The notes below the pieces were generated by a model. It did no database searches. It was not told where the DNA came from and worked only from the letters and a program-made list of their open reading frames with translations. A stretch of DNA of 32,000 nt from Synechococcus elongatus PCC 6301 (GTDB lineage Bacteria; Cyanobacteriota; Cyanobacteriia; Synechococcales; Synechococcaceae), in the NCBI RefSeq assembly GCF_000010065.1, contig NC_006576.1:150001-182000 (forward strand), written 5' to 3'. This document shows, piece after piece, positions 4,314 to 24,798 of this stretch; position 1 is the stretch's first letter; every line of letters starts with the position of its first letter. Both the position numbers and the translations under genes were made by a program.

Positions 4314-4347
4314 AAGACAGCGCTAGCATGGCGCTGTCTTTCTTTTT
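4314..4347 (+). terminator. Rho-independent terminator downstream of ndhB
   Basis: There is a perfect 10-bp stem: AAGACAGCGC (4314-4323) pairs with GCGCTGTCTT (4331-4340). The loop is 7 nt and the stem is followed by TCTTTTT. Confidence 0.6.
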
Positions 4348-4365
4348 GCAACCCCTTGTCTCTGC

Positions 4366-5091
4366 ATGGCAGAATCCGCGCCTCCCGTCATTCAGTTCGA
4401 GCATGTCAGCAAGATCTACGGCGAAGGGGAAACTACGGTCCGTGCCTTGGATCATGTCGACTTTCAAGTTCGGGCGGGTGAGTATTGCGCGATTATGGGC
4501 GCTTCGGGTTCGGGAAAGTCGACGGCAATGAACCTGATTGGTTGCCTTGATCGCCCCACAGCTGGCCGCTATTACCTCGACGGCACCGATGTCGCCGATT
4601 TGGATGACGACGCCCTCGCTGCCGTGCGCAATCGCAAGATTGGATTTGTTTTTCAGCAATTTCACCTGTTGCCCCAGCTCAGCGCGGTCGAGAATGTGAT
4701 GCTGCCGATGATCTACGCCGGCATTTCTCAGCAGGAGCGGCGCGATCGCGCTGTCGCTGCTTTAACCCAAGTGGGCCTCGCTCAACGACTGGACAATAAA
4801 CCCAATCAGCTGTCTGGGGGACAACAACAACGGGTGGCGATCGCCCGAGCGATCGTGAATCAACCAGTGCTATTGCTGGCAGATGAACCGACTGGAGCAT
4901 TGGATTCCCAGACGACCGAAGAAGTGCTGAATATCTTCGACCAGTTGCACCAGCGGGGCATCACGATCGTGATCGTCACCCACGAAGCCGAGGTCGCCGA
5001 TCGTGCCGAGCGGGTGATCTGGTTCCGCGATGGCCAAATCCAGCGGGAAACCCAAAATCCGCCTCGGCCAGTCCTTGCAGCTACCTTTTGA
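4366..5091 (+). CDS. ABC transporter ATP-binding protein of the MacB/LolD/DevA type
   Basis: Walker A is GASGSGKST, the signature is [14 protein letters not shown], and Walker B is LLLADEPTGALD. The start IQFEHVSKIYGEG and the FQQFHLLP motif are typical of the MacB/LolD ATPase clade. Confidence 0.85.
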   Translation: MAESAPPVIQFEHVSKIYGEGETTVRALDHVDFQVRAGEYCAIMGASGSGKSTAMNLIGCLDRPTAGRYYLDGTDVADLDDDALAAVRNRKIGFVFQQFHLLPQLSAVENVMLPMIYAGISQQERRDRAVAALTQVGLAQRLDNKPNQLSGGQQQRVAIARAIVNQPVLLLADEPTGALDSQTTEEVLNIFDQLHQRGITIVIVTHEAEVADRAERVIWFRDGQIQRETQNPPRPVLAATF

Positions 5092-5103
5092 GCAGCGCGA
5101 TCG

Positions 5104-5859
5104 CTAGGGATTTTGAGCCTTCCAGATGAAATAGATCCCAAAACTAAGTAGCAACAGCTGAAAGCAGCGTTGAACCAGCACTGCAGGTAACTTGGGCAAG
5201 AGCCGCGTGGTCACCTGCACGCCCAGTAAGCCGCCCAAACCCAGCCAAAACCCTTGGACCCAGAGTACGTCGCCAGCGACTGCATAACCACTCAACGCTG
5301 AGCAGGCAGTGACGATAATCACGCCGAGGCTGGTTTGCACTGCTGTTTTGATCGGTACCCTCATCAACAGCACCTGCAGCGGCACCATCAGCGTGCCCCC
5401 CCCAATCCCAAACAGTCCTGCTAGGACGCCCCCTAAAGCGCCCGTAATCAGTACGGACATCAGGCTAGGCTGAGTGGGCTTATCCTTGTCGGGCGAGGCG
5501 TTACGGTTCAACCACTGCCGCAGTTCAACCAAAAAGATATTAAGAAAGTAAAGGCCGGCAATTCCCAGCAGCAGAACATTGCCCGGTAGCCGTTGGGCCA
5601 GAAAGACCCCCAGTTGGGCTGTCGCGATCGCCGGTAGACCCAGTTGCCAGATACTCGCTGCCTGTAAATTGCCCGATCGCCAGTTTTGCCAGGTGCCAGA
5701 GATTGAGGTGATCAGAATGGCGAGATTACTGGTGCCAAAGGCTTGCACCGGGCTGACGCCTAAACCGATCAAGACCGGCACCATCAACACGCCGCCGCCC
5801 ACTCCCAGCAGTCCTGCCAAGAGGCCAGCTCCAATCCCAATTACAAACAACGTCACCAT
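5104..5859 (-). CDS. TauE/SafE (TSUP, DUF81) family anion-export membrane protein
   Basis: This 251-aa protein has about 8 TM segments. The glycine-rich motif is repeated (GLLGVGGGVLMVP and GLFGIGGGTLMVP), which is characteristic of the two-halves TSUP fold. Confidence 0.8.
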   Translation of the reverse strand: MVTLFVIGIGAGLLAGLLGVGGGVLMVPVLIGLGVSPVQAFGTSNLAILITSISGTWQNWRSGNLQAASIWQLGLPAIATAQLGVFLAQRLPGNVLLLGIAGLYFLNIFLVELRQWLNRNASPDKDKPTQPSLMSVLITGALGGVLAGLFGIGGGTLMVPLQVLLMRVPIKTAVQTSLGVIIVTACSALSGYAVAGDVLWVQGFWLGLGGLLGVQVTTRLLPKLPAVLVQRCFQLLLLSFGIYFIWKAQNP

Positions 5860-5982
5860 TGTGTTTCTCGTCTGGTTGATGACCGATGAGGAGTAGCGAT
5901 ACCGTCGCAGAGGTTGAGCAGTGCTAGAAAGAAAACAGCGCCGCCCCTACCTGCGAACGCTCAACCGACTCTGGAGATTGGC

Positions 5983-6432
5983 ATGGCTGTGTCTTCCGAA
6001 ACGACTCTTGACTCCTCGGCCTTGTCTGCGACTGCGCCGCTAGATTACATCGATATCATCGAGACCGTCATCAGTAGCCTTGCCGATGCTGACAGTGCCC
6101 AGGTCAGCCACACGGGCAGCGGCACGATCTGGAAGTTTCGCTATGGCCAACTCGAAGTTTTTGTACAACTGACGGGCTCTAGCGAGGACGACCTGTTCAC
6201 GGTTTGGGCCAAAGTTTTTCCGCTCAGCGAATCCACCGACGCCACACTTCTGCAACGGCTGCTTACCCTCAACTGGGCCGACACCCTCGAGGCGCGGTTT
6301 GCCCTTTATGACGATCACATCACGATGGTGGCTAGCCGCACCGTAGCTGATCTCTCGGCGGGCGAAATCTCGCGAGCCATTACCTTGGTGGCGAGTATTG
6401 CTGCCACTTATGCTGAAGGGCTCCCAAGCTAG
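5983..6432 (+). CDS. YbjN-like (type III secretion chaperone-like fold) hypothetical protein
   Basis: The segment WKFRYGQLEVFVQL...LFTVWAKVFPL...LLQRLLTLNWADTLEARFALYDDHITMVASRTVADLSAGEI resembles the YbjN/sensory-transduction-regulator family pattern. I prefer the ATG at 5983 over the TTG at 5914. The family call is from memory only. Confidence 0.5.
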   Translation: MAVSSETTLDSSALSATAPLDYIDIIETVISSLADADSAQVSHTGSGTIWKFRYGQLEVFVQLTGSSEDDLFTVWAKVFPLSESTDATLLQRLLTLNWADTLEARFALYDDHITMVASRTVADLSAGEISRAITLVASIAATYAEGLPS

Positions 6433-6441
6433 GGTACAGCG

Positions 6442-7149
6442 GTGCCCTTCTCGACTCTTACTTGGCAGATCCTACCTTGGCTGGTTGCGCCGGGTGACTG
6501 GCAGATGGCCTTGGATGACTGGCTGCTCGATGAAGTGCGCCGCGATCGCTGTCCCCCTACTTTTCGCTTATTCACTTGGCAAGACCCTGGCTTGTCCCTC
6601 GGCTGGCATCAGGATCCACTGCTCGTGGATCTGGACTTACCCATCGTTCGCCGACCCACGGGAGGACGGGCTGTGCTTCACGGAGGCGATCTTTGCTATT
6701 CCCTAGTGACGCCTGCCCCAGTAACAGGCGATCGCCGACAGACCTATTGTCTGCTCACTCAATTCCTGCGATCGGCCTTTCAGTCCCTCGGGTATCCACT
6801 CAGTACCGGTTGTGATCGCCCCGATCGCACTGCGATCGACTGTTTTGCCCACAGTACCGTTGCTGATTTACAGCTCATTGATGGCCGCAAGTGCATTGGC
6901 AGCGCCCAACTTTGGCGCGATCGCACCATCCTCCAGCAAGGGTCGATTCAGCTCCAGCCGCCCGATTGCTGGACTCAAGTCTTGGGAACGCCATCGCCAC
7001 CAGCCCTGTCGCTCGCGATCGCGACCCTAGCGACGAGTCTGATCAATGCCCTGAGAGACAGCTACGGCCTCAGCCTGAACCCTGGAGGTTTGAGCTCTGC
7101 GGATTGGGAGGCAATTGACGACCGGCGATCGCGCTTTCAGGTTGACTGA
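6442..7149 (+). CDS. Lipoate-protein ligase family protein (BPL/LplA/LipB catalytic domain only)
   Basis: The start is GTG. The motif RRPTGGRAVLHGGDLCYS resembles the LplA RRxSGGGAVYHDxGNLxFS lipoyl-AMP binding loop. At 235 aa there is no C-terminal accessory domain. Confidence 0.7.
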   Translation: MPFSTLTWQILPWLVAPGDWQMALDDWLLDEVRRDRCPPTFRLFTWQDPGLSLGWHQDPLLVDLDLPIVRRPTGGRAVLHGGDLCYSLVTPAPVTGDRRQTYCLLTQFLRSAFQSLGYPLSTGCDRPDRTAIDCFAHSTVADLQLIDGRKCIGSAQLWRDRTILQQGSIQLQPPDCWTQVLGTPSPPALSLAIATLATSLINALRDSYGLSLNPGGLSSADWEAIDDRRSRFQVD

Positions 7150-7228
7150 ACACCTCAGCGCCACTAAAAACACCGCAAGCGGGAAGTTCGCCACCTAGAA
7201 TGAAAACAGTTTTTCTGGCAACCGTCCG

Positions 7229-10244: not shown

Positions 10245-10880
10245 TTAGGCTGCTATATCACCTCTAGCTGCCTGTATTGTCATCAATCCCCAAAACCAAT
10301 TGATCCGATATTGGTCAATTGATAGCAGTTTAAAGTTGCTTTCGATTAATATCTTTTGCAAATCATCTATTGAGTAAGCTCTAACATGAGCCTTGTCAAC
10401 CCAATGCAACCATCGATCTAGGAGGTTAATCATCAAGTAATTTCGGCACCAGTCCGTTAAAATCAAGCAACCCTGGGGCTTTAAAACTCTCGTGATCTCT
10501 TGAAGAACTTTTTCAGGGTTTTGAAAATAATGGAAAACACTCGTTGAGATCACGAGGTCGAAATGGTGTTCCGGAAAGGGGAGTTCATTAGCTTCTCCAG
10601 TCTGCAGCTTGACTGAATCCGGTAGTTTCTGCCGAGCGATCGCTAGCATTGCAGCTGATATATCTAAACCTGAAAGCTTGACTGTAGGATATTGTGCTGC
10701 AAGTTGTTGAAGGAGTGATCCAGTTCCACAACCAAGGTCTAAGACTGATGCTTGAGAGCTGATAGTAATTCGCTTAAGGGTTTCTTGAATAGTGGCATGA
10801 ATATAAAAATCCCAGCGGCGATCGTAGGATGATGCAAGGATTGTATATTCTTCTTGAACTGGGGTGGAATGATTTTCCAT
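10245..10880 (-). CDS. Class I SAM-dependent methyltransferase (Methyltransf_11/25 type)
   Basis: Motif I is VLDLGCGTGSL. The post-I acidic residue is in GLDIS and motif II is FDLVISTSVFHY. I prefer the ATG at 10880 (MENHSTP) to the TTG at 10886. The gene is markedly AT-rich (about 42% GC in a 60-nt spot count). Confidence 0.8.
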   Translation of the reverse strand: MENHSTPVQEEYTILASSYDRRWDFYIHATIQETLKRITISSQASVLDLGCGTGSLLQQLAAQYPTVKLSGLDISAAMLAIARQKLPDSVKLQTGEANELPFPEHHFDLVISTSVFHYFQNPEKVLQEITRVLKPQGCLILTDWCRNYLMINLLDRWLHWVDKAHVRAYSIDDLQKILIESNFKLLSIDQYRINWFWGLMTIQAARGDIAA

Positions 10881-11111
10881 CGTCAAAATTTGCTGACTAG
10901 AAGCTGTTGGTAATATTTGCTGGATTCTAGTGCTGTGAAACTGGGGCAGTCGAGTCTTTCTTGGTGTCTATGGTGAGGTGATCAATGCTCTTTGAGACTG
11001 TTGTCACGCTCTCGGGTTGGAGTGCATCAATGCCGACTCAGAGGCGATCGCCAGAAAAACTCAGCAATCGCCCAGCAGGCGTCGGTGGATTCCCTGCAAT
11101 AGTCGCAAAAA

Positions 11112-15430: not shown

Positions 15431-16206
15431 ATGCGGATTGACTGCCTGCCAGCACTTCAGGACAATACATCTTTCTGCTAGTTGATGTAGAGCAGCGACA
15501 GGCCGCGGTAGTTGACCCAGCGGAAGCAGAGCCAGTGCTCGCTGCTTTGCAAGCGGAAGGGCTCACCCTAACAGCCATCCTGAATACCCACCATCACGGC
15601 GATCATGTCGGCGGTAACCGGCGGTTGCTACGGCAATTTCCCGAGGCAGCTGTCTCCGCCAGCGCCGTCGATCGCGATCGCATTCCAGGTCAAACGGTCT
15701 TGCTCGAAGCGGGCGATCGCCTACAGATTTGTGGTCAAACCGCCGAAGTCTTATTTGTGCCCGGACATACCCGTGGCCACATCGCCTATTACTTCCCTGA
15801 GGTAGCTGAGGGCAACCCTAGGGGCGCTTTGTTCTGCGGCGACACCCTGTTTGCCGGTGGCTGCGGTCGTCTGTTTGAAGGGACGCCGGCGCAAATGCTG
15901 GACTCCTTGCAACAGCTGCGATCGCTCCCTGACGACACCGCAATCTACTGCGCCCACGAGTACACCTTGAACAACCTCCGCTTCGCGCTAACAGTAGAGC
16001 CAGACAATTTTGACCTGCAACAGCGCTATCAAGCCGTCGCGATCGCTCGTCAGCAAGGACAGGCGACTATTCCTAGCCGTTTAGACATTGAAAAAGCTAC
16101 CAATCCCTTTCTGCGCTGGGATCAAGCAGCCCTGCAAGCGGCCGTTTCCAGTCAAGATCCGGTTCAAACCTTGGCTCGGCTGCGGAGCCGGAAGGATCAG
16201 TTTTAG
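15431..16206 (+). pseudogene. gloB: Hydroxyacylglutathione hydrolase (glyoxalase II) with an apparent 1-nt deletion frameshift near codon 13
   Basis: The ATG at 15431 gives [12 protein letters not shown] and then hits TAG at 15479. The next frame reads [29 protein letters not shown]... and continues through [16 protein letters not shown] and CAHEYT to 16206. The two frames share the T at 15466: AATAC is found where AATTAC is needed. The ORF track only detects the GTG-15535 remnant. Confidence 0.75.
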
Positions 16207-16222: not shown

Positions 16223-17482
16223 TCACGACTGCGGCGATCGCAAATTCTCGCCACACGCCCGACAGTAGGGCAGATATTGATAGGTCAGGTGGTGGCAATG
16301 ATGGCACTCGATGTATTGATAATGGCCACAGTGGGGGCAGTGCGCTTCTTGAGCAGGGAGCCGTTTGGCGCACTTGATACAGCGGGACTTCTGGACTCGA
16401 TTAGCGGCTTGAATGCGTGGGTTAAAAATCCAAGCTTGGGCGAGTTTGATGATGCCAAAACCCAAGGCAGGAATCAGGAAGATATAGAGATAACTGACGA
16501 GGAAGAGGAGCTGGCCAAATAGAGCTTGAACTAGCTGTGAGAGAGCATTAAAAATAATGTTGATTCGCAGTAGCTCAAAGGCTTTAAACAGTAATGGCAG
16601 AGAGAAGATAACTAGTAAGTGCCAGCTCAACAAAGCCAGCAATCCATAGTCACGTCGTTCAGCATAGCGATGGATAACTGTCGCGATCGCTAGGAGTGGA
16701 GCAAGGAATATAATCTGTAGCAAGAGTTGCAGGGCTGGATACCAAAACAGCGATCGCTGATAGCCCTGTGCAACCTGTTCAAATTGACTACGATCGGCCA
16801 GCAGCGCCAAAAAGGAGCGACTTGCAGGCTGAGTGATCAGCGTTTGTTCTAAACCAGCGATCGCCTGCCGATTGGTCTGAATCGTTGCTTGATTAGCCTC
16901 AAGTTTTTGGCGAGCTTGATCTGCCCCAACATCGGTGATTGCCTGATCTCGAGACTGCCCTGCGATTTGCTCCAGCAGGGAAGAGTCGTACTGCTCACGA
17001 ATTTTTTGATTTTCAGCTTCTAGCTGGTTGATCGTGGCTTGTTTTTGATTAATCGAGACAAGAATATTAGAATAATTTGCCTTAGTGATTTGGTCATAGC
17101 GCTCTGCATATTGTAGACAGAGTGGAGAGGCTGAGCCGAGGCGATCGCGCTGCGACTGTTGATATTGACTAGTCAGCGAAAGAAAGGAACTAGGGGTTTC
17201 CATCCCGATTCTTACAGCTTGAGAGACTAGCTTAAAAGCCTGATTCTCTGCCTTGCGAAGTTGTGGGTCTTGATAAATTTGCCAGTCTTGATAGCAAGGA
17301 TAAGACTCGCTAGCCATGAGTGGCCAACGACCAATTTCTGAGAGTCCTGAAAAGACATTAACGAGGATGAAAATATCAATAACAATAATGACAACAAGAC
17401 TAACTTTGTTCAGGGGCTCATTGTTAATCGTTCTCGACCTGCGAAATGCCGATCCAAACCATCGTTTCAAGCGTGACCACAT
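16223..17482 (-). CDS. Hypothetical membrane protein: N-terminal TM, Q-rich coiled coil, about 4 TM segments, and a C-terminal double zinc ribbon
   Basis: This is a 419-aa ORF. The first TM is VSLVVIIVIDIFILVNVFSGL. A roughly 200-aa stretch rich in Q, A and E has heptad character. A hydrophobic block follows. The tail is CIKCAKRLPAQEAHCPHCGHYQYIECHHCHHLTYQYLPYCRACG, which gives four CxxC pairs. The gene is AT-rich (32-38% GC in spot counts) but contains HIP1 sites. Confidence 0.6.
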   Translation of the reverse strand: MWSRLKRWFGSAFRRSRTINNEPLNKVSLVVIIVIDIFILVNVFSGLSEIGRWPLMASESYPCYQDWQIYQDPQLRKAENQAFKLVSQAVRIGMETPSSFLSLTSQYQQSQRDRLGSASPLCLQYAERYDQITKANYSNILVSINQKQATINQLEAENQKIREQYDSSLLEQIAGQSRDQAITDVGADQARQKLEANQATIQTNRQAIAGLEQTLITQPASRSFLALLADRSQFEQVAQGYQRSLFWYPALQLLLQIIFLAPLLAIATVIHRYAERRDYGLLALLSWHLLVIFSLPLLFKAFELLRINIIFNALSQLVQALFGQLLFLVSYLYIFLIPALGFGIIKLAQAWIFNPRIQAANRVQKSRCIKCAKRLPAQEAHCPHCGHYQYIECHHCHHLTYQYLPYCRACGENLRSPQS

Positions 17483-17694
17483 GGTTACGACTCCTCCCAG
17501 TGTTTCCTGAGCAGCTCACTCCGGCTTTTAAGATGTCACCCTGAACTCGACCAACGGATGATTCGTCGAAATTTCTTATCATTGGTGAATCCCTCCCCAG
17601 ATCCGTTGAGCGTCAATCCGTGGCTCTGAGGGCCTCAATCCAGTCCATTGGAAATCTCGCGGCAGAATAAAGGAGTACTGCTGTTTGAACTCGC

Positions 17695-18072
17695 ATGGAT
17701 CTCAAACGCCTCGGCCACGTTGCCATTTGCGTGAAAGATATTGAAGCTGCCGCTGCGTTCTATCAGGGCTTGGGTCTCGAGCTAGTTTGGCAGGATGCAG
17801 ACTGGGCATACCTTAAGGCGGGTGAGGACGGCCTGGCGCTACTCGGCCCCAGCTACAAGCAAGCAGGTCCACACTTTGGCTTTATTTTTCACGATCGCGC
17901 CGAAGTTGACACGGCTTATGAGCAGCTGAAAACCCAGGGTGTTGAACTAACGCGCATCCATGAGCACCGTGATGGTACGGCCTCCTTCTACGGCAAAGAC
18001 CTTGACGGCAACTGGTTTGAATACCTCTATGAACCCATCAAGGCAACCGTAGAAACTACAGTTTCGGCTTGA
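17695..18072 (+). CDS. VOC (glyoxalase/bleomycin-resistance/dioxygenase fold) family protein
   Basis: This 125-aa protein starts LGHVAICVKDIEAAAAFYQGLGLEL, a typical first beta-alpha-beta-beta-beta module. Candidate metal ligands are H in GHVAI, H in PHFGF and E in FEYLYEP. Confidence 0.8.
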   Translation: MDLKRLGHVAICVKDIEAAAAFYQGLGLELVWQDADWAYLKAGEDGLALLGPSYKQAGPHFGFIFHDRAEVDTAYEQLKTQGVELTRIHEHRDGTASFYGKDLDGNWFEYLYEPIKATVETTVSA

Positions 18073-18133
18073 TCGAGGCTTAACTACCTTGGTTAATCTT
18101 AATTCCGATTAGCAAGGTTAGTTGTCATGAGTT

Positions 18134-18158
18134 AGCCTCTCTTATTCCAAGAGAGGCT
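18134..18158 (+). terminator. Hairpin downstream of the VOC gene, a possible terminator
   Basis: There is a perfect 10-bp stem: AGCCTCTCTT (18134-18143) pairs with AAGAGAGGCT (18149-18158). The loop is 5 nt. Only a weak T-run follows (TTAGTTAAT), so terminator function is uncertain. Confidence 0.4.
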
Positions 18159-18422
18159 TAGTTAATCTAGACAGATTACCAAAGAATCTAAGATGTTTAC
18201 TGCAAAAATAATTTGTCTAAATTAATTCAGAACACCCTAACTCACGAGTGCTGGCAATGGTTTGAACGTTGAAAGATCAACCCAAATCAAACCTCCAGTC
18301 AAACTTTTAAAAAATAAATTTACAACATTAAGAGACGTTTAAAAGCATTAGCCTTGTTGCCGGCAAGATTAGGATCACTCTTGGGAATCCTCTGATCCAG
18401 AGGTTAGGAGTGTTGCTTCATC

Positions 18423-19544
18423 TTGATTGGTCATACGCTGAGGAGACGCCAGTTTTTGCAGGGACTTTGTGGTGCGTCTGCAGTTCTACTCGCCCAGCAA
18501 GTCCAAGCTGCACCGGCAAGATTGCGATCGCTGGCAGAGTTAGCACAACAGCGATCGCTCCTGCGGGGATCTGCCATTACGACTGACATGTTGGCCATTC
18601 CAGACTTAGCAGCACTCTATCGTCAGCAAACGAGTCTCTTGGTGCCGGAATGGGAAATGAAGTGGGAGGTGTTGCAACCGAGCCCCGATCGCTTTGACTT
18701 TAGCCGCTCGGATCGCTTACTCGCTTTTGCGCAGTCCTATCAAGCCCAGTTGCGCGGTCACACGTTGCTCTGGCATCAGCAATTGCCGCAGTGGCTAGCA
18801 TCCTTGACAGCGGCTGAGACAGCAACAGCCCTGCAACGCTATATCACCACCGTTGTTGGTCACTATCGCGGTCACCTGCAATCTTGGGATGTGATTAACG
18901 AACCGATCGCCGAAAATGGACAAGGACTCCGTCCCAATCTTTGGTTACGGCAGCTAGGGCCTAGTTATTTAGAGAAGAGCCTGCGCTGGGCAAGAGCGGT
19001 CGACCCGACAGTTCCCTTGGTCATTAATGACTTCGGTCTGGAACCTGATAGCCCCCTCGCGACTCGTAAACGTCTGCAGCTACTGCGTCTCGTTCAGGAA
19101 TTGCGCGATCGCGATACTCCCCTTCAGGCGATCGGGTTCCAAGCTCACTTGGTCGCTAACCCCCAAGCACCTCCCAGCTTCACTGGTTTTGCTGAGTTTT
19201 TAGCGGACTTGAGTCGCTTTGATCTCGACTTCTACATTACAGAATTAGACGTCAATGATCAGGCTTTACCGGCCAATAATGCTGAGCGCGATCGCGAAGT
19301 TGCCCAGACCTATCAGCGTTTCTTGAGTGCAGTTCTACCGCTTCCTCGCCTCAAGTTAGTGACCACTTGGGGGCTCAGCGATCGCTTCACTTGGCTTAAT
19401 CAGTTTGCACCTCGGGCAGATGGACTACCTCAGCGTCCACTCCCGTTTGATTCCGTTTTTCAACCCACTGAGACCTATGGCAACCTCATCACCCTCCTCC
19501 AATCAGTTTCAAACGGACCCAACAGCAGCACCTCAACGCAGTAG
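18423..19544 (+). CDS. Glycoside hydrolase family 10 (endo-beta-1,4-xylanase/glucanase type) with a Tat signal peptide
   Basis: The start is TTG, with AGGAG 13 nt upstream. The twin-arginine leader is LRRRQFLQGLCGASAVLLAQQVQA. The GH10 acid/base Glu lies in SWDVINEP and the nucleophile Glu in FYITELDV. Confidence 0.85.
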   Translation: MIGHTLRRRQFLQGLCGASAVLLAQQVQAAPARLRSLAELAQQRSLLRGSAITTDMLAIPDLAALYRQQTSLLVPEWEMKWEVLQPSPDRFDFSRSDRLLAFAQSYQAQLRGHTLLWHQQLPQWLASLTAAETATALQRYITTVVGHYRGHLQSWDVINEPIAENGQGLRPNLWLRQLGPSYLEKSLRWARAVDPTVPLVINDFGLEPDSPLATRKRLQLLRLVQELRDRDTPLQAIGFQAHLVANPQAPPSFTGFAEFLADLSRFDLDFYITELDVNDQALPANNAERDREVAQTYQRFLSAVLPLPRLKLVTTWGLSDRFTWLNQFAPRADGLPQRPLPFDSVFQPTETYGNLITLLQSVSNGPNSSTSTQ

Positions 19545-20712
19545 CGCTGCTAATTTTGTGGTGATCAGCCTAGGCATCTTGATTCTGCTCAGTGGTGTTG
19601 GCTTACTGTTTTACACCTTGGCAACCACTCGTGGTCGAGATGCAATTGTCAACGCCAAAGTTATCACTTTGCAAGCCCCTGATGATGGGATTGTGACCGA
19701 TTTTCAGATACGACCGGGCGAAGAAATTCCTGCTAATCAACCCCTTCTAAGGATTGAGAATCCTCGCACAAGTACATTTGAGCAAGCACGCTTACAGACT
19801 CAGCTCGATACTGAGCAGCAAAAACTAAAATTACAGCAAGATCAGTTGAGCAATATCTCACAACTTCGCCAACAGGTCGAGCGTGATAACCGCAATCAAC
19901 GGCAACTCGAAATCAATAAGTTCACAGCGCAACGCCGCAAGTTGCAGGCTGATATTAATGCAGCTCGTGGGCAATTGGCATTAGCGAAACGAATTTATGA
20001 ACGCCGCCGCGACCTAGCTACCACAGGAGCTATCGCGATCGAAGTGGCTGATCAAGCAGAGACAGACTATTTACGGCAACAGGATGCTCTCACAGCCCTA
20101 ACGAAAGAGCTGACCAGTCGGGAACAAGATTTAAAAGCAGCCCAATTGGGGCTAACTTTAATTAATTCCCGCACCAACTATGATCCGAGTGTTCGTCTAC
20201 AGGAATTAAAGATTCAAGAAACGCAGCTACGATCGCAGGTCGCAGCACAGACAGCCCAAGTCAATGGTCTAAAAAATCAGTTACAGGAAATTACGCGTAA
20301 CACGCGATCGCGCCAGAATATTCCGCTTTCAAGTCCTGTTCCTACTGTTTTATGGCAGTCCTCAGTCAGTAATGGAGACGTTGTCACACGAGGACAACCA
20401 CTCGCAAAAACCATTGACTGTCGCGACCGTTGGATCGATGTCTACATCGGTGAAACGGCTTTACGCCAAGTCCGAATTGGTGAGTCTGCTCGCATTGATT
20501 TGATTGGCAAAGATCAATCAATAACAGGCAAGGTTGCATTTATTCGTTCTGGGGTTGGTCGTCTACGTATTGGTGAAGATGTGCTGCCACTTGTACCGAT
20601 TAATTTAGCGCGGGAAAGCCAGGTGAGAATTCAGTTAGATCCTGATAACGTTCAAGCTGCTGAATTTTGCTATGTGGGATTTACAGGTCGTGTTACTTTC
20701 CAAAATTTTTAA
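19477..20712 (+). CDS. HlyD-family periplasmic adaptor (membrane fusion protein)
   Basis: It has a single N-terminal TM (FVVISLGILILLSGVGLLFYTL), a lipoyl-like segment (VTDFQIRPGEEIPANQPLLRIEN), a long coiled coil of about 200 aa, and a beta-barrel tail. The ATG at 19477 overlaps the GH10 gene by 68 nt. An in-frame GTG at 19558 is an alternative start. Confidence 0.8.
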   Translation: MATSSPSSNQFQTDPTAAPQRSSAANFVVISLGILILLSGVGLLFYTLATTRGRDAIVNAKVITLQAPDDGIVTDFQIRPGEEIPANQPLLRIENPRTSTFEQARLQTQLDTEQQKLKLQQDQLSNISQLRQQVERDNRNQRQLEINKFTAQRRKLQADINAARGQLALAKRIYERRRDLATTGAIAIEVADQAETDYLRQQDALTALTKELTSREQDLKAAQLGLTLINSRTNYDPSVRLQELKIQETQLRSQVAAQTAQVNGLKNQLQEITRNTRSRQNIPLSSPVPTVLWQSSVSNGDVVTRGQPLAKTIDCRDRWIDVYIGETALRQVRIGESARIDLIGKDQSITGKVAFIRSGVGRLRIGEDVLPLVPINLARESQVRIQLDPDNVQAAEFCYVGFTGRVTFQNF

Positions 20713-20729
20713 GAGTTGTTAATTGCTTC

Positions 20730-22952
20730 ATGCGTTTCCCCAACTTTCTACAGCGATCGCCCCAGTCCAACCTAGCTCCGAGTCAGGTTTCACCTGGAGC
20801 ATGGCTATTTTTAGCTATCAGCATCGCTGTTTTAGTTTTTGCCTTACTGAGTCTGAATTTAAGTTGGCTGCAAAATCTGCCAGGCTATCTGAATCCTCAA
20901 AACGTACGGGATCTACCAGAATCTCTGAGCTTCCCAGAGGATCCACGGCAGCTGTTTCAGCCCCTATTACTAGTAGCCGGTCTACTGCTGTCATTAAGGA
21001 TATTGCCTCACCATCCTATTAGTCATCTGCTAGTATTGTTAACCCTCTTGCTCTATGGGATTCGCTACTTCACGTGGCGTTTATTCGCTCTGAATAATGG
21101 ACATATTTTTAGTTTAACCTTAAGCATTATTTTTCTTTTGACGGAAAGCCTTTATGTCTTAAGCTTCTTGATGCAATTCTATCCAACTCTAGTGTTTGAT
21201 CCCAAGCGGCGATCGCGGCAGGCTGACCAGCAAGAAGCTTTACTCAGCAAGTTTTCGCCCAGTGTCGCCATTTGGATTCCGATTTACAACGAGCATCCAA
21301 GAATCATTCGGCGTACAATTCTTGCTTGCCAACTGATCGATTATGAGAATAAAGAAATTTATGTTCTCGATGATGGTCATCGATCTGAAATTCGAGCGAT
21401 CGCTACAGAATTAGGTGTCCATTACCTCAGTCGTCCAGATAATACCCATCGCAAGGCAGGCAATCTGAACTATGCTCTTAATCATACAAATAGTGACTTA
21501 ATTGCTGTATTTGATTGCGACTTCTTGCCATTCAATAATTTTCTAAAGCGGACCGTTGGTTTCTTTGCCAACGAAGAGATTGCACTTGTCCAAACTCCGC
21601 AGCACTACTACAACAGTGACTTCCATACTCGTAATTTAGGTCTAGATTATGTGTTGCCCAATGATATGGATTATTTCTTTCACTATATCCAGCCAATACG
21701 AGATCAATTTAACTCCGTCATCTGTTGTGGAACTTCATACGTCGCTCGTCGCTCAGCTCTGGAGGATGTGGGTGGCTACTACACTGATTGCATTGTTGAA
21801 GATTTCCAAACGGGCACTAAATTACTCCTTAATCATTGGCGAGTTGTTTACCTCAATGAAGTGCTCAGTATTGGTGAAGTCCCGCGTCACTTATCTGAAT
21901 ATTTGCAGCAGCGTCTTCGCTGGATGCAGGGAAATATTCAACTTTACTGCAGTCATAAACAGTTGCCCATTTGGTCTGGTCGACTCACCACTTGGCAACG
22001 TCTTTTCTATCTAAGTATATTGATCTACTGCCTCACACCATTCATGCGTGCAATTTATATCCTCTTGCCACTGCTGAGTTTTCTTTTTGGCTTCACATTG
22101 ATTGCTGCACCCCCAATTGAATATTTCTATTATGGATTGCCTTTTATATTATTGATTTATGGCGCTACAAGCTGGTTGACCTACAATCACTATTTTCTTT
22201 ACTGGACTGAGATTTATGAGTCAATTATGTGTTGGCCTAGCCTTCAACGAATCATACAAGTCTTATTTAACCCTTTTGGAAACTTTGGCTCCTTGGTAAC
22301 TGCCAAAGGAGAATTAGATGATCGCAAACGCTTTAACTTAAAAATTTCTTGGCCTTTCATTGCTTATTTAAGCTTATTTGGCTTAGGTTTCTGTCTGCGC
22401 TATGTAGCTCCGTTGCTCTCTCCTTATTTTGTGCGACCCTCCTTTGAAGGAGAAGCCTTAATGATGATCTGGAATTTCTATAATGCAATGCTAATGTCAA
22501 TTTGCTTATTTGCTTGTGTTGATCAACCTATCCGTCGTCGTTTTGAACGCTATCCTTACCAAGCTGTCGCTTGTCTTGAAGTCAACGGTCATAAGTTCTG
22601 GGGCATGACTCAAGATCTCTCTGAAGGAGGAGCTAGTTTTATCCTGCGTAATGAGCAAGAGCTCCAACTGATTGACGAGCAAGCTGAACTAGTTTTACTT
22701 CAAGAAGACTTGCGTATTCCTGTCAATGTCCTTCGTATGAGCCGTGAAGCGTTCAACGGTCATAGCCAAGTAGGCTTGGAATTTCAGCTCTCTGATACGG
22801 CTGCTGAAAAAACACTGATTCGCCTCCTATATGTGGACTCAAGCCTGTGGTGGCAGCAGATTCGCCGCTCCAGTGCGATCGATGCTTTTCTAGTGCTGAT
22901 TCGGTCCGCCCTCAATCCACGAGCGCTTTTAACGCGCTACAACAATGGTTAA
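20730..22952 (+). CDS. Cellulose-synthase-like family-2 glycosyltransferase with a C-terminal PilZ domain (BcsA/XcsA-like)
   Basis: BcsA-type motifs are present: IPIYNE, VLDDG, HRKAGNLN, FDCDF, QTPQHYYN, IVEDFQTG and QQRLRWMQG (QxxRW). There are multiple TM helices on both sides of the catalytic domain. The PilZ motifs are RRRFER (22533-22550) and DLSEGG (22614-22631). I prefer the ATG at 20730, 17 nt after the HlyD stop. Confidence 0.88.
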   Translation: MRFPNFLQRSPQSNLAPSQVSPGAWLFLAISIAVLVFALLSLNLSWLQNLPGYLNPQNVRDLPESLSFPEDPRQLFQPLLLVAGLLLSLRILPHHPISHLLVLLTLLLYGIRYFTWRLFALNNGHIFSLTLSIIFLLTESLYVLSFLMQFYPTLVFDPKRRSRQADQQEALLSKFSPSVAIWIPIYNEHPRIIRRTILACQLIDYENKEIYVLDDGHRSEIRAIATELGVHYLSRPDNTHRKAGNLNYALNHTNSDLIAVFDCDFLPFNNFLKRTVGFFANEEIALVQTPQHYYNSDFHTRNLGLDYVLPNDMDYFFHYIQPIRDQFNSVICCGTSYVARRSALEDVGGYYTDCIVEDFQTGTKLLLNHWRVVYLNEVLSIGEVPRHLSEYLQQRLRWMQGNIQLYCSHKQLPIWSGRLTTWQRLFYLSILIYCLTPFMRAIYILLPLLSFLFGFTLIAAPPIEYFYYGLPFILLIYGATSWLTYNHYFLYWTEIYESIMCWPSLQRIIQVLFNPFGNFGSLVTAKGELDDRKRFNLKISWPFIAYLSLFGLGFCLRYVAPLLSPYFVRPSFEGEALMMIWNFYNAMLMSICLFACVDQPIRRRFERYPYQAVACLEVNGHKFWGMTQDLSEGGASFILRNEQELQLIDEQAELVLLQEDLRIPVNVLRMSREAFNGHSQVGLEFQLSDTAAEKTLIRLLYVDSSLWWQQIRRSSAIDAFLVLIRSALNPRALLTRYNNG

Positions 22953-23220
22953 GGCTGTAGCTTTCCCTACCGTTGCGATCGTAGCTGAGCCCCTAGTTCA
23001 AAAGGCAGTGCATCCAATTGCAGCAGTTACGTGCGTTCTATGGAGCCATCACAGTGACCCCTCTGATACCTAAGTTGGCAACCAGTATCAATGTTTGCTC
23101 CATTGAGTTGGCTGTATGCGAGGGATTGACTGGAAGTAGTCTTCGCTACAGGGATTTGCGATCTCCCTTGCTAAGGTAATGACCATCAAAACTTTATAAA
23201 AACCCCCTAGAGGCAGCAAT

Positions 23221-23254
23221 GCCCTGGTAGAGCTCTACCAGGGCGCTATTTTTT
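23221..23254. terminator. Bidirectional rho-independent terminator between the convergent synthase and repeat-protein genes
   Basis: There is a perfect 12-bp palindromic stem: GCCCTGGTAGAG pairs with CTCTACCAGGGC (23221-23244). TATTTTTT follows on the + strand and an A-run (AAAAACCCCC) lies upstream for the - strand. Confidence 0.7.
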
Positions 23255-23279
23255 CGCTAACTCAGACTTAAACTCAGCC

Positions 23280-24608
23280 TTAGCCAAAGAGCTTGCGGAA
23301 AAATCCCTTAATTTTGCGAAGCAACCGCCCAAAGAAACTGGGGCTAGGGGACTCACTGGCCAGCTGTAACGAACTTTGGCTTTGAACCTCTGCCGGCTTC
23401 AGCTTCTCAGCAACAGACTGCGAGGCAACGACTGCGGCTTCGAGCTTCTCTTGTGCCCCTTTGAGGCTGTCAGCTGCAGTTGAAACCGCCTCGGGCGCCT
23501 GCTCAAGCTGTTCACTGACCGTATTAGCAGTATCCTGGACGTCGCTCTGAGCGCTCTTTGTCAGATTGCCGAGTTCTTCTTGCCGAGCGTTGGTAAAAGT
23601 TGACAGCTTTTCCTGGGCACTAGCAGCAAACTCAGACGCATCTTCCTGGAGATTGCTGAGTTTTTCTGCCGCTGATTCGCCAAGTTCTCCGAAGCGATCG
23701 CTAACGGCTTCACCGAAACTGGCAGCTTTACCCTGAGTCGTTTCCACAATCTCGCTCAGTTTTTCCTGACTTGCCTCTGCAAAGTCACCAAACTTCTCCT
23801 TCGCTCCGGCTGCAAGCTCAGACGCACCTTCCTGGAGATTGCCGAGTTTTTCTGCCGCTGAGCCACGCAGCCCTTCGACGCGATCGCTCACAGCTTCACC
23901 GAAACTGGCAGCTTTACCCTGAGTCGTTTCCACAATCTCGCTCAGTTTTTCCTGACTTGCCTCTGCAAAGTCACCAAACTTCTCCTTCGCTCCGGCTGCA
24001 AGCTCAGACGCACCTTCCTGGAGATTGCCGAGTTTTTCTGCCGCTGAGCCACGCAGCCCTTCGACGCGATCGCTCACAGCTTCACCGAAACTGGCGGCTT
24101 TATCCTGAGTCGTTTCCGCAATCTCACTCAGTTTTTCCTGACTTGCTTCTGCAAAGTCACCAAATTTCTCCTTCGCTCCGGCTGCAAATCCTGCAGCGCC
24201 CTCTTGCAAGTTGCCGAAGCTTTCAGTTGCTGATTCGCCGAGTTCTCCGAAGCGATCGCTAACGGCTTCACCAAAACTGGCAGCCTTCCCCTGAGCGCTG
24301 GTCAATAACTGACCTAAGTCATCTTTATGCGCTTCGGCAAAGTTGCCAAACTTTTCCTTAGTCTCAGCCGCTAGTTCTGTAGCACTTTCCTGCAAGTTGC
24401 TCAGACCCTCGGTAGCGGCAGATCCAAGCTCAGTAGCCTTGTCGGTTACGGACTTAAAAATAGTGGTGAAGGGGTTGCCAGAATCATCAGCAGGATTAGG
24501 CTCAGCTGAAGCTTCCGGAGAAAGTTCAGCTAAAAGTCCATCCAACACCTCATCTGCTGGAGTTGAAGGCGTACTCTCTGGACTGTTGGGCGTTTTGTCG
24601 TTACTCAT
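23280..24608 (-). CDS. Repeat protein: acidic disordered N-terminus, about five 62-aa helical repeats, and a basic amphipathic C-terminal helix
   Basis: I prefer the ATG at 24608 (MSNDKTPNS), which has GAGGGA about 7 nt upstream. The repeat unit is KAASFGEAVSDRxxxLxxSAxExxGNLQEGAxxxAAGAKEKFGDFAEASQEKLSEIxETTQ. The C-terminus is FFGRLLRKIKGFFRKLFG. I recognise no enzymatic motif. Confidence 0.75.
   Translation of the reverse strand: MSNDKTPNSPESTPSTPADEVLDGLLAELSPEASAEPNPADDSGNPFTTIFKSVTDKATELGSAATEGLSNLQESATELAAETKEKFGNFAEAHKDDLGQLLTSAQGKAASFGEAVSDRFGELGESATESFGNLQEGAAGFAAGAKEKFGDFAEASQEKLSEIAETTQDKAASFGEAVSDRVEGLRGSAAEKLGNLQEGASELAAGAKEKFGDFAEASQEKLSEIVETTQGKAASFGEAVSDRVEGLRGSAAEKLGNLQEGASELAAGAKEKFGDFAEASQEKLSEIVETTQGKAASFGEAVSDRFGELGESAAEKLSNLQEDASEFAASAQEKLSTFTNARQEELGNLTKSAQSDVQDTANTVSEQLEQAPEAVSTAADSLKGAQEKLEAAVVASQSVAEKLKPAEVQSQSSLQLASESPSPSFFGRLLRKIKGFFRKLFG
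23521..24450 (-). repeat. In-frame tandem repeat array with a 186-bp period, about 5 copies
   Basis: The anchor GCTTCACC recurs at 23707, 23893, 24079 and 24265. Copies 23707-23892 and 23893-24078 are identical by eye over all 186 nt. The flanking copies are progressively diverged. The outer boundaries are approximate. Confidence 0.85.
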
Positions 24609-24798
24609 GTAGCTTCCCTCTACAGAACACCGCGGCCCAGCGACAGGCATTGCTCAAATTTTGGCGATATTTCGCTGATCTGGCCACAATTGCAAAGTTT
24701 CATTGACGATCGCGGACCCATCGCAGTTCTGAAAGTGCGCTGGTCACAACCTCAGGGGTTAGCTAGCGTAGAGAGAACACGTCGGCGATCGCAACTGC

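What the first reader, a model, noticed from the sequence alone, without database searches (positions are those of the whole stretch)
18423..22952. GH10, HlyD-adaptor and PilZ cellulose-synthase-like operon: a compact candidate c-di-GMP-gated exopolysaccharide synthesis and export system
Three same-strand genes are tightly packed. The first junction is a 68-nt overlap, or a 13-nt gap if the GTG at 19558 is the start. The second junction is 17 nt.

1. The first gene encodes a Tat-exported GH10 with both catalytic Glu motifs intact (WDVINEP, ITELD).
2. The second encodes a single-TM HlyD membrane-fusion protein with a long coiled coil.
3. The third encodes a multi-TM GT2 carrying every BcsA-type motif I can check by eye (DDG, HRKAGNLN, DCD, VED, QxxRW) plus a C-terminal PilZ domain.

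The classical bcs partners (BcsB, BcsC, GH8 BcsZ) are absent. An MFP and a GH10 take their places. This resembles the tripartite Xcs model proposed for Thermosynechococcus (synthase, HlyD-like protein, endoglucanase-like protein and TolC; Maeda et al. 2018, cited from memory), where the genes are dispersed rather than in one operon.

S. elongatus-type strains are generally treated as non-cellulose producers. The polymer, the inducing signal and the outer-membrane exit are therefore open questions. The xylanase-family hydrolase also leaves room for a product that is not plain beta-1,4-glucan.
Basis: partly seen in the sequence, partly recalled or inferred. Interest (0 to 1): 0.7.

Follow-up and report, generated by a model that had tools for sequence, protein, structure and literature searches.

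The report
Known cyanobacterial cellulose-synthase (Xcs) operon

Summary
The window is S. elongatus PCC 6301/7942. Three + strand genes lie at 18423-19544, 19477-20712 and 20730-22952.

- The first encodes a GH10 with a twin-arginine signal.
- The second encodes a HlyD-type adaptor.
- The third encodes a BcsA-like GT2 with a PilZ domain.

The GT2 is 43% identical end to end to the Thermosynechococcus XcsA-type protein. Its AlphaFold model matches solved BcsA structures best (TM-score 0.77).

The same gene order recurs in Cyanobium-type picocyanobacteria and in a divergent S. elongatus lineage. There all three proteins stay 79-83% identical although synonymous sites are very divergent or saturated.

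The novelty does not hold. A 2025 review, citing Maeda et al. 2018, names SynPCC7942_1398/1399/1400 as the XcsA/XcsB/XcsC homologue operon and contrasts it with the dispersed Thermosynechococcus genes.

Still untested in S. elongatus are the polymer, c-di-GMP activation, the TolC exit, and what the xylanase-family hydrolase cuts. I could not confirm directly that Tlr1902 is a GH10.

Verdict: real, correctly read, already known, low interest.

The parts
18073..18422 (+). 350-nt AT-rich intergenic region upstream of the operon; presumed promoter and 5' leader
   Evidence: GC is 0.371 against 0.528 for the window. No sigma-70 consensus match was found here at the tool's threshold. No Rfam family matches, so there is no c-di-GMP riboswitch. 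The promoter role is inferred, not shown.
18423..19544 (+). xcsC-like gene (syc0155_d / Synpcc7942_1400): periplasmic GH10 glycoside hydrolase, 373 aa
   Evidence: Exact match to BAD78345.1. Pfam PF00331 E 2.5e-78. The catalytic residues E160 (WDVINE) and E274 (TELD) are invariant across 15 cyanobacterial homologues. The best solved relatives are GH10 xylanases and the C. fimi Cex beta-1,4-glycanase, E 3e-51 to 7e-50.
18423..18518 (+). Twin-arginine (Tat-type) signal peptide of the GH10, about residues 1-29/32
   Evidence: The sequence reads MIGHTLRRRQFLQG, then a hydrophobic stretch, then VQA/APA. The arginine at position 9 is nearly invariant in homologues. The cleavage site was read by eye, not predicted with a dedicated tool.
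19477..20712 (+). xcsB-like gene (syc0156_d / Synpcc7942_1399): HlyD/EmrA-type membrane-fusion (periplasmic adaptor) protein, 411 aa
   Evidence: Pfam HlyD_3 and HlyD_D23. The nearest solved protein is EmrA 4tko, E 1.7e-6. One membrane helix at residues 27-45. The single-sequence AlphaFold model has confident helices at 96-182, 188-224 and 237-280, forming a long hairpin; its beta domains are not resolved. The ATG 19477 start is supported by conserved N-terminal residues and by BAD78346.1. It overlaps the GH10 gene by 68 nt.
20730..22952 (+). [quoted passage not shown]
   Evidence: Exact match to ABB57428.1. NCBIfam TIGR03030 CelA scores 397 bits, the best family but below the 699-bit cut-off. 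PDB BcsA 7lby E 2.6e-77 and 4hg6 E 3.9e-50. AlphaFold pLDDT 82.9, pTM 0.80. Foldseek top hits are BcsA 9b8v, 9fnn and 4p00 at TM-score 0.77. It is 43% identical to Thermosynechococcus XcsA.
21258..21932 (+). GT-A catalytic domain of XcsA (residues 177-401) with DDG, HRKAGNLN, DCD, VED and QRLRW
   Evidence: Pfam Glyco_tranf_2_3 covers 177-401. D214, D215, K242-N247, D262, D264, E357, D358 and Q394-W398 are invariant in 16 XcsA-clade sequences.
22533..22832 (+). PilZ domain of XcsA (residues 602-701), the presumed c-di-GMP receptor
   Evidence: Pfam PF07238 E 1.4e-13. It carries RRFER 603 and DLSEGG 629. R602, R603, R607, E632 and G634 are invariant and S631 nearly invariant in the clade. The model shows a beta-barrel at 613-685. 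Binding was not tested here. It is reported for T. vulcanus XcsA (PMC10124867).
23220..23245 (+). Terminator-like hairpin (11-bp stem, 7 G-C pairs) followed by a T-run, 268 nt after the xcsA stop
   Evidence: This is the strongest terminator-like site in 17400-23500. Inside the three genes only short hairpins (5-6 pairs on the + strand) were found, the one nearest a junction (19538-19550) having 5 pairs. This fits one transcription unit, but co-transcription is inferred.

Best explanation
This is the S. elongatus copy of the cyanobacterial Xcs-type, BcsB- and BcsC-independent cellulose synthesis and export system, encoded as one xcsC-xcsB-xcsA unit.

Proposed mechanism:
1. XcsA sits in the inner membrane. 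When c-di-GMP binds its PilZ domain, the GT2 domain polymerises UDP-glucose into a beta-1,4-glucan and threads it through the enzyme's own transmembrane channel.
2. XcsB is anchored by one N-terminal helix. It assembles around the periplasmic exit and reaches, through its long alpha-helical hairpin, a TolC-like outer-membrane channel encoded elsewhere. This gives the polymer a continuous conduit.
3. The GH10 (XcsC-like) is exported folded through the Tat pathway. It trims or releases the nascent chain in the periplasm, the role that the GH8 enzyme BcsZ plays in classical bcs operons.

Shown here: the gene structure, domains and motifs; a BcsA-like fold; homology to the Thermosynechococcus XcsA-type protein; recurrent synteny; and long-term conservation.

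Inferred from homologues and the literature: the substrate and product, c-di-GMP activation, the XcsB-TolC bridge, the role of the hydrolase, and co-transcription.
For: **Published identification**
- PMC12430437 lists SynPCC7942_1398/1399/1400 as XcsA/XcsB/XcsC homologues in an operon.
- The exact protein matches are to ABB57428 and to BAD78345/BAD78346.

**XcsA**
- Full BcsA motif set and PilZ motifs.
- BcsA is the best family, the best solved sequence and the best fold, TM-score 0.77 against about 0.5 for plant CesA.
- 43% identity over 739 aligned positions to the Thermosynechococcus protein.

**XcsB**
- An XcsB homologue sits directly upstream of xcsA in L083, L084, L086 and a cyanophage, and close by in L085, L089 and L090 (E 1e-46 to 1e-57).
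- No ABC, MFS or RND pump gene stands between it and the synthase in the window or in these pairs.

**GH10**
- GH10 is linked to xcsBA in 8 further loci, in three arrangements.

**Conservation**
- Against S. elongatus IITB4 the three proteins are 79-83% identical with dN 0.11-0.15.
- dS is 2.5 (GH10) or saturated (xcsB, xcsA), comparable to flanking housekeeping genes.

**Function in relatives, from the literature**
- In T. vulcanus, xcsA, xcsB, xcsC and a tolC-like gene are each needed for extracellular cellulose, and XcsA binds c-di-GMP (PMC7582838, PMC8892547, PMC10124867).
- In Sinorhizobium, TolC is needed for the GT2+HlyD glucan system BgsBA (PMC13438883).
Against: - I found no experiment on this operon in S. 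elongatus. The review itself says the XcsAB-TolC model 'lacks experimental validation'.
- XcsA scores below NCBI's equivalog cut-off for cellulose synthase (397 against 699 bits).
- The hydrolase is a canonical GH10 whose closest solved relatives are xylanases, not a GH8 or GH5 endoglucanase.
- I could not retrieve Tlr1902 to confirm it belongs to the same family.
- Most members of this GH10 clade (74 of 80 sampled loci) are not next to xcsBA.
- S. elongatus has a second xcsA/xcsB-like pair (Synpcc7942_2151/2152). Which pair, if either, makes the small amount of native cellulose is unknown.
- The TolC partner and the diguanylate cyclase lie outside the window.
Confidence: 0.75

Rival explanations
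1. The machinery is the same, but the product is not plain cellulose. It could be a mixed-linkage beta-glucan, as made by the rhizobial GT2+HlyD+TolC system BgsBA, or a glucan or xylan-like polymer matched to a xylanase-family hydrolase.
For:
- XcsA is below the CelA equivalog cut-off.
- The hydrolase is a canonical GH10. By eye, the GHTLLWHQQLP and WGLSDRFTW stretches line up with the matching stretches of the xylanases aligned.
- S. elongatus carries two xcsAB-like pairs that could have diverged in product.
Against: - XcsA is 43% identical along its full length to the Thermosynechococcus protein. The literature reports that protein's product as cellulose.
- It carries a true PilZ domain. In the description quoted, BgsA's C-terminal c-di-GMP-binding region is only likened to a PilZ domain.
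- All acceptor and donor motifs are BcsA-like, and BcsA structures are the top fold matches.
- C. fimi Cex, among the closest solved relatives (E 6.7e-50), is deposited under names such as 'beta-1,4-D-glycanase' and 'exo-beta-1,4-glucanase'.
Confidence: 0.12
2. The operon is intact but effectively silent in laboratory S. elongatus. It would be a horizontally acquired accessory module with no role under standard conditions.
For: - Synpcc7942_1398 and 2151 were classed as horizontally transferred (PMC3025956).
- Third-position GC of xcsB and xcsA is 0.39 and 0.41, against 0.57-0.65 in most neighbours.
- A cyanophage carries an xcsB-xcsA pair.
- Native cellulose is very low.
- In the one transcriptomic and phenomic biofilm study of PCC 7942 that I checked, these genes are not mentioned in the main text.
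Against: - The whole locus, with the same flanks, is present in the divergent S. elongatus IITB4.
- Protein identity there is 79-83% with synonymous sites very divergent or saturated, so selection has maintained all three genes for a long time.
- The low GC3 is also kept in IITB4 (0.42-0.44), so it is not a sign of recent arrival.
- Silence in the laboratory would not contradict the main explanation. It concerns regulation, not mechanism.
Confidence: 0.1
3. The three genes are unrelated neighbours: a secreted xylanase for scavenging, an efflux-pump adaptor, and a glycosyltransferase.
For: - 74 of 80 sampled loci with this GH10 clade lack xcsBA nearby. These include acidobacterial and alphaproteobacterial loci.
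- The HlyD protein is annotated 'multidrug resistance efflux pump' in databases.
Against: - The same order with short gaps or an overlap recurs in six genomes, and the trio occurs in two other arrangements.
- The adaptor has no pump gene beside it. It always sits next to the synthase, even on a phage.
- The published T. vulcanus genetics tie all three functions to one phenotype.
Confidence: 0.03

Closest known systems
Xcs tripartite cellulose system of Thermosynechococcus vulcanus (XcsA Tll0007, XcsB Tlr0903, XcsC Tlr1902, TolC-like Tlr1605; Maeda et al. 2018, as reported in PMC12430437, PMC8892547 and PMC7582838)
   Same: - A BcsA-like synthase with a PilZ domain, 43% identical along its full length to a Thermosynechococcus homologue.
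- A HlyD-like adaptor in place of BcsB and BcsC.
- A periplasmic hydrolase as third component.
- The literature already lists this window's genes as the homologues.
   Different: - Here the three genes are contiguous, in the order C-B-A. In Thermosynechococcus xcsA is solitary. In Parathermosynechococcus, xcsB lies 3.5 kb away on the other strand.
- No function has been tested in S. elongatus.
- S. elongatus has a second xcsAB-like pair.
- I could not verify the GH family of Tlr1902.
Classical bacterial cellulose synthase operons (BcsA-BcsB-BcsZ-BcsC of Rhodobacter, Komagataeibacter, E. coli)
   Same: - Catalytic subunit fold and motifs, a PilZ-based c-di-GMP switch, and coupled synthesis and translocation.
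- A periplasmic glycoside hydrolase encoded in the operon.
   Different: - No BcsB and no BcsC was found in the window.
- An EmrA/HlyD-type adaptor is present instead.
- The hydrolase is a GH10 with a Tat signal rather than the GH8 BcsZ.
- XcsA is below the NCBIfam CelA cut-off.
- The gating-loop region reads FGSLVTAK, with two extra residues relative to the E. coli sequence.
BgsBA-TolC mixed-linkage beta-glucan system of Sinorhizobium meliloti (PMC13438883)
   Same: A c-di-GMP-activated membrane GT2 encoded next to a HlyD-type adaptor, with genetic evidence that TolC is required. This is the same three-tier export logic.
   Different: - In the description quoted, BgsA's c-di-GMP-binding C-terminus is only compared with a PilZ domain.
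- The product is (1-3)(1-4)-glucan.
- bgsBA is described there as a two-gene operon, so no hydrolase gene is part of it.
xcsB-xcsA pair of Synechococcus phage S-CBWM1 (gp157-gp158, MG450654.1)
   Same: gp158 is 39% identical over 97% of XcsA. gp157 is 32% identical over 361 residues of XcsB. The two overlap by 4 nt.
   Different: - It is phage-borne, next to psbA.
- There is no GH10 gene within 5 kb.
- Its role in infection is unknown.

Membership tests
Xcs-type cyanobacterial cellulose system (Maeda et al. 2018) | XcsA: a BcsA-like GT2 with a C-terminal PilZ domain, homologous along its full length to Tll0007 | tested here: met
   43% identity over 739 aligned positions to Thermosynechococcus sp. 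QKsg1 P0330. Same Pfam architecture.
Xcs-type cyanobacterial cellulose system (Maeda et al. 2018) | XcsB: a HlyD-like membrane-fusion protein associated with the synthase | tested here: met
   HlyD_3 and HlyD_D23 domains. Homologues lie next to or near xcsA in L001-L004, L010, L057, L083-L086, L088-L091. Direct comparison with Tlr0903 was not possible.
Xcs-type cyanobacterial cellulose system (Maeda et al. 2018) | XcsC: an endoglucanase-like protein homologous to Tlr1902 | tested here: inconclusive
   The review PMC12430437 equates SynPCC7942_1400 with XcsC. The Tlr1902 sequence and the original paper were not retrievable.
Xcs-type cyanobacterial cellulose system (Maeda et al. 2018) | A TolC-like outer-membrane factor is required | not testable with these tools
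   No OEP/TolC domain was found in the window ORFs scanned.
Xcs-type cyanobacterial cellulose system (Maeda et al. 2018) | The product is extracellular cellulose and synthesis is activated by c-di-GMP | not testable with these tools
   Only sequence motifs are available: RRFER and DLSEGG. I found no experiments on this operon.
BcsA (bacterial cellulose synthase catalytic subunit) | GT2 catalytic signature D, DxD, (T/V)ED, QxxRW, plus an FFCGS-like motif and HxKAGN | tested here: met
   DDG 214, HRKAGNLN 240, DCD 262, ICCGT 331, VED 356 and QRLRW 394. The catalytic residues are invariant in the clade.
BcsA (bacterial cellulose synthase catalytic subunit) | BcsA-like membrane channel architecture and overall fold | tested here: met
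   AlphaFold pTM 0.80, with four N-terminal and four to five C-terminal long helices. Foldseek TM-score is 0.75-0.78 to 4p00, 4hg6, 9b8v and 9fnn. The gating-loop region VTAK 523 is present, with a two-residue insertion.
BcsA (bacterial cellulose synthase catalytic subunit) | C-terminal PilZ domain with RxxxR and D/NxSxxG | tested here: met
   PF07238 E 1.4e-13. RRFER 603 and DLSEGG 629. Conserved in the clade.
BcsA (bacterial cellulose synthase catalytic subunit) | Reaches NCBIfam's equivalog score for UDP-forming cellulose synthase (TIGR03030 / NF008558) | tested here: not met
   397 bits against a cut-off of 699, and 311 bits against 992. It is the best-matching family, but not an equivalog by NCBI's threshold.
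BcsA (bacterial cellulose synthase catalytic subunit) | An obligate BcsB partner encoded alongside | tested here: not met
   No BcsB-type domain was found in the larger ORFs of the window. An MFP occupies the adjacent position.
Glycoside hydrolase family 10 | Family profile match and both catalytic glutamates (acid/base in WDVxNE, nucleophile in TELD) | tested here: met
   PF00331 264 bits against a cut-off of 22. E160 and E274 are invariant. 139 solved GH10 relatives at E below 1e-10.
Glycoside hydrolase family 10 | Substrate: xylan or beta-1,4-glucan | not testable with these tools
   The closest solved relatives are xylanases and the enzyme Cex, deposited as a beta-1,4-glycanase/exoglucanase. 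Sequence alone does not settle the substrate.
HlyD/EmrA-type membrane fusion proteins | N-terminal membrane anchor, long alpha-helical hairpin, lipoyl and beta-barrel domains | tested here: met
   Membrane helix at 27-45. Confident helices at 96-280. HlyD_3, HlyD_D23 and weak Biotin_lipoyl matches. EmrA 4tko E 1.7e-6. The beta domains are poorly modelled, with pLDDT below 50.
HlyD/EmrA-type membrane fusion proteins | A cognate ABC, MFS or RND inner-membrane transporter encoded beside it | tested here: not met
   The immediate neighbours are the GH10 and the GT2 synthase, here and in the syntenic loci. The synthase takes the place of the pump.

The most novel reading that the evidence does not exclude
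The GH10-linked xcsCBA operon of S. elongatus and Cyanobium-type picocyanobacteria may make a polymer other than plain cellulose. A mixed-linkage or otherwise modified beta-glucan is one possibility, matched to a xylanase-family hydrolase. The second pair (Synpcc7942_2151/2152) would then be the true cellulose system. In that case two HlyD-coupled synthase systems with different products would coexist in one small genome, and the module would be exchangeable through cyanophages.
Probability: 0.1. Interest if true: 0.6.

Novelty: already known. Interest (0 to 1): 0.2.

Why it matters
As a discovery it adds little. The locus tags, the gene order and the Xcs interpretation are already in print.

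It still matters as a practical lead. S. elongatus PCC 7942 is the most tractable cyanobacterial chassis. It carries the whole synthase-adaptor-hydrolase set as one 4.5-kb unit, whereas the genes are scattered in Thermosynechococcus. That makes it a convenient place to test three open points:
- the still unvalidated XcsAB-TolC export model;
- what a GH10 does in a cellulose system;
- which of the two xcsAB pairs makes the small native cellulose signal.

The analyses here add some detail to what the literature consulted here states:
- The adaptor-synthase pair is the conserved core, and the GH10 is a variable third gene.
- The operon is old and under purifying selection in S. elongatus despite its odd base composition.
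- A cyanophage carries the xcsB-xcsA pair.

Tried and rejected
**Confirming that T. vulcanus XcsC (Tlr1902) is a GH10**
- Maeda et al. 2018 is not in the held library.
- Papers citing it call the protein only 'endoglucanase-like'.
- Full-text searches for GH10 or xylanase together with cyanobacterial cellulose synthase found nothing.
- Two protein searches, with the window GH10 and with an Acaryochloris GH10, returned no hit named as Thermosynechococcus among the 120 listed each. This is left open.

**Looking for a c-di-GMP riboswitch or other known RNA upstream**
- No Rfam family reaches its threshold in the whole window.
- The leader gives only one chance-level hit, to a fungal snoRNA model. 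Rejected.

**Looking for a consensus promoter in the 350-nt upstream region**
- None was found at the tool's threshold. This is uninformative for cyanobacterial promoters.

**Recent horizontal transfer as the reason for the low GC3 of xcsB and xcsA**
- This is weakened. The same locus, flanks and low GC3 are present in the divergent strain IITB4, with synonymous sites saturated.
- In Cyanobium the three genes have the host's high GC3.

**GTG 19558 as the xcsB start (the PCC 7942 annotation, 384 aa)**
- Rejected in favour of ATG 19477, because conserved residues lie upstream of the GTG.

**The longer ORF starts, TTG 19405 and TTG 20667**
- There is no support from database entries or homologues, apart from one MetaClust entry for the 761-aa form.

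**Other limits**
- The single-sequence AlphaFold model of XcsB gave usable helices only. Its beta domains are unreliable, so no fold search was run on it.
- The second S. elongatus pair (2151/2152) and the TolC gene lie outside the window and could not be compared.

Full report
**1. What is there**

The window is the Synechococcus elongatus PCC 6301/7942 chromosome. The GH10 protein is an exact match to BAD78345.1 of PCC 6301. The 740-aa GT2 is an exact match to ABB57428.1 (SynPCC7942_1398). The 411-aa adaptor is BAD78346.1, syc0156_d.

Three + strand ORFs occupy 18423-22952. Reading the junctions base by base gives the following:
- The GH10 starts at TTG 18423, 12 nt after an AGGAG, and stops at 19544.
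- The adaptor starts at ATG 19477 (68-nt overlap) or GTG 19558 (13-nt gap), and stops at 20712.
- The synthase starts at ATG 20730, a 17-nt gap, and stops at 22952.

An alignment of the adaptor with nine homologues shows a conserved 'RSxxAN' stretch just before the membrane helix. It lies upstream of GTG 19558, and several homologues start with a Met that aligns with ATG 19477. The 68-nt overlap is therefore the likelier arrangement.

A strong hairpin followed by a T-run at 23220-23245 is the best terminator candidate. Inside the three genes the scan found only short hairpins, of 5-6 pairs on the + strand. A 350-nt AT-rich spacer (37% GC) lies upstream. One transcription unit is likely but not shown.

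**2. Domains and motifs**

Pfam gives:
- Glyco_hydro_10, E 2.5e-78.
- HlyD_3 and HlyD_D23, E 1.3e-18 and 2.5e-14.
- Glycos_transf_2, Glyco_tranf_2_3, Cellulose_synt and PilZ for the third protein.

- GH10: RRQFL (twin-arginine signal), WDVINE, TELD.
- Synthase: DDG, HRKAGNLN, DCD, VED, QRLRW.
- PilZ: RRFER and DLSEGG.

Both catalytic glutamates of the GH10 are invariant in 15 cyanobacterial homologues. The catalytic and PilZ residues of the synthase are invariant in 16 members of its clade.

The adaptor has one membrane helix at residues 27-45. In a single-sequence AlphaFold model, confident helices span 96-280 and form a long hairpin. Its beta domains are not resolved. Its closest solved relative is EmrA.

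**3. Is the synthase a BcsA-type beta-glucan synthase?**

Yes, by every test available.
- NCBIfam's cellulose synthase model is by far the best family, at 397 bits against 70 for PgaC. It is below the 699-bit equivalog cut-off.
- E. coli and Rhodobacter BcsA are the best solved sequences, at E 2.6e-77 and 3.9e-50.
- An AlphaFold model built on 16 homologues (pLDDT 82.9, pTM 0.80) matches BcsA structures at TM-score 0.75-0.78. Plant CesA reaches about 0.5, and hyaluronan and chitin synthases score lower.

I built no phylogeny, so this rests on sequence and fold ranking only.

**4. Relation to the Xcs system**

The synthase is 43% identical over 739 aligned positions to the Thermosynechococcus sp. 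QKsg1 protein. That gene is solitary in its genome and is followed by an IS630 transposase.

In Parathermosynechococcus lividus and a related genome, an XcsB homologue (E 5e-56) lies 3.5 kb downstream of xcsA on the other strand. The dispersal seen in Thermosynechococcus therefore looks like a derived rearrangement.

**5. Synteny**

A scan of one genome per species with a GH10 alignment returned 80 loci.
- Six carry HlyD and GT2-PilZ homologues beside the GH10. Five have the window's order (Cyanobium, Synechococcus sp. CCY 9618, picocyanobacterial MAGs) and one has a different arrangement.
- The other 74 are standalone. They include Nostocales, Acaryochloris, Acidobacteria and Alphaproteobacteria.

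Looking from the synthase side:
- The adaptor sits directly upstream in Halomicronema, in two metagenomic contigs and in a cyanophage. It sits nearby in Candidatus Synechococcus calcipolaris.
- One of those contigs has a convergent GH10 right after the synthase.

The adaptor-synthase pair is thus the conserved core. The GH10 is a recurrent but facultative third gene.

**6. Age and selection**

S. elongatus IITB4 has the same locus with the same flanks.
- The three proteins are 79-83% identical, with dN 0.11-0.15.
- dS is 2.5 for the GH10 and saturated for xcsB and xcsA.
- These values resemble those of the flanking housekeeping genes.

Third-position GC is low for xcsB and xcsA in both strains (0.39-0.44), against about 0.6 for most neighbours. 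In Cyanobium the same genes have the host's high GC3.

A 2011 study listed Synpcc7942_1398 and 2151 as horizontally acquired (PMC3025956). If so, the transfer predates the split of these S. elongatus lineages. The operon is not decaying.

**7. What is already known**

The review PMC12430437 (2025), citing Maeda et al. [quoted passage not shown] It contrasts this with the scattered tll0007, tlr0903 and tlr1902. It also notes a second pair, Synpcc7942_2151/2152.

PMC8892547 and PMC7582838 summarise the T. vulcanus genetics. Each of xcsA, xcsB, xcsC and a tolC-like gene is needed for extracellular cellulose. PMC10124867 reports that XcsA binds c-di-GMP through its PilZ domain.

A 2026 paper shows that TolC is required for the analogous GT2+HlyD system BgsBA, which makes a mixed-linkage glucan (PMC13438883).

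I found no experiment on the S. elongatus operon itself. The review says the export model still lacks validation and asks whether it applies to operon-organised clusters.

**8. Mechanism and its status**

The most likely mechanism is as follows:
1. c-di-GMP binds the PilZ domain of XcsA and releases the active site.
2. UDP-glucose is polymerised and the chain is pushed through XcsA's own channel.
3. XcsB bridges to a TolC-like channel.
4. The Tat-exported GH10 trims the chain in the periplasm.

Shown here are the parts list, the folds, the homology, the linkage and the conservation. Everything about substrate, product, activation, contacts and co-transcription is inferred from homologues.

The main rival is that the product is not plain cellulose. 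Support for it: the hydrolase is a canonical GH10 whose nearest solved relatives are xylanases, the one comparable GT2+HlyD+TolC system makes mixed-linkage glucan, and XcsA is below the CelA cut-off. Against it stand the full-length similarity to a Thermosynechococcus XcsA homologue, the true PilZ domain, and the fact that Cex, a close solved relative, is deposited as a beta-1,4-glycanase/exoglucanase.

**9. What I could not settle**

- Whether Tlr1902 is a GH10. Neither the paper nor the sequence could be retrieved.
- The TolC partner, the diguanylate cyclases and the paralogous pair. All lie outside the window.
- No riboswitch or other Rfam family lies upstream.

**10. Verdict**

The feature is an already described member of a known system. 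Interest is low (0.2). The residual value is as a compact, tractable test bed for the unvalidated XcsAB-TolC model and for the role of a GH10 in glucan export.

Noticed in passing
L088 (Synechococcus phage S-CBWM1, MG450654.1) 3814-7166: A cyanomyovirus carries an xcsB-like gene (gp157, annotated as an efflux pump membrane protein). It is 32% identical over 361 residues to the window's XcsB and overlaps by 4 nt an xcsA-like 'putative cellulose synthase' (gp158, 39% identity, 97% coverage). The pair sits just after psbA, with no GH10 nearby. It could be a vehicle for moving the adaptor-synthase pair between picocyanobacteria.
   Followed up: partly
window 19477-22952 compared with L091 4748-8223: xcsB and xcsA have third-position GC of 0.39-0.44 in two S. 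elongatus lineages whose synonymous sites are saturated. Most neighbours are near 0.6 and the GH10 is at 0.54-0.59. The same genes are GC3-rich in Cyanobium. A stable low GC3 in old genes is not explained by recent transfer.
   Followed up: partly
L089 12697-14031 and L090 15578-16927; L081 10405-10966: In Parathermosynechococcus lividus and a related genome, an XcsB homologue lies 3.5 kb from xcsA on the opposite strand, beyond ddl and atpB/atpE. In Thermosynechococcus sp. QKsg1 an IS630-type transposase follows xcsA and no xcsB is within 8 kb. This suggests the dispersed arrangement arose by rearrangement.
   Followed up: partly
loci L005-L080: The GH10 clade to which this protein belongs (39-45% identity) is widespread as a standalone gene in Acidobacteria, Alphaproteobacteria and filamentous cyanobacteria. 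Some cyanobacterial members carry C-terminal SLH domains (for example P0081, PF00395). What these enzymes act on in photoautotrophs is unclear.
   Followed up: no
window 16223-17482 (- strand): A 419-aa protein has membrane segments, a glutamine-rich coiled-coil stretch and a C-terminal double zinc ribbon (weak Pfam DZR, below the cut-off). Its GC is low (0.47). It is wedged between a glyoxalase II gene (15535-16206) and a glyoxalase I-like gene (17695-18072). It is conserved in IITB4 (75% identity). Its function is unknown.
   Followed up: no
window 23280-24650 (- strand); repeats 23626-24295: The convergent downstream gene encodes a 456-aa acidic protein made of 62-aa (186-bp) tandem repeats: 3.6 copies, 89-94% matching. 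It has apolipoprotein/YtxH-like helical matches below the Pfam cut-offs. The gene at the same position in IITB4 encodes 649 aa, so the repeat number probably varies between strains.
   Followed up: partly
window 10245-10886 (- strand): A SAM-dependent methyltransferase gene has markedly low GC (0.417, GC3 0.38) and sits among iron/solute ABC-transporter genes of normal composition. It may be another compositional island.
   Followed up: no
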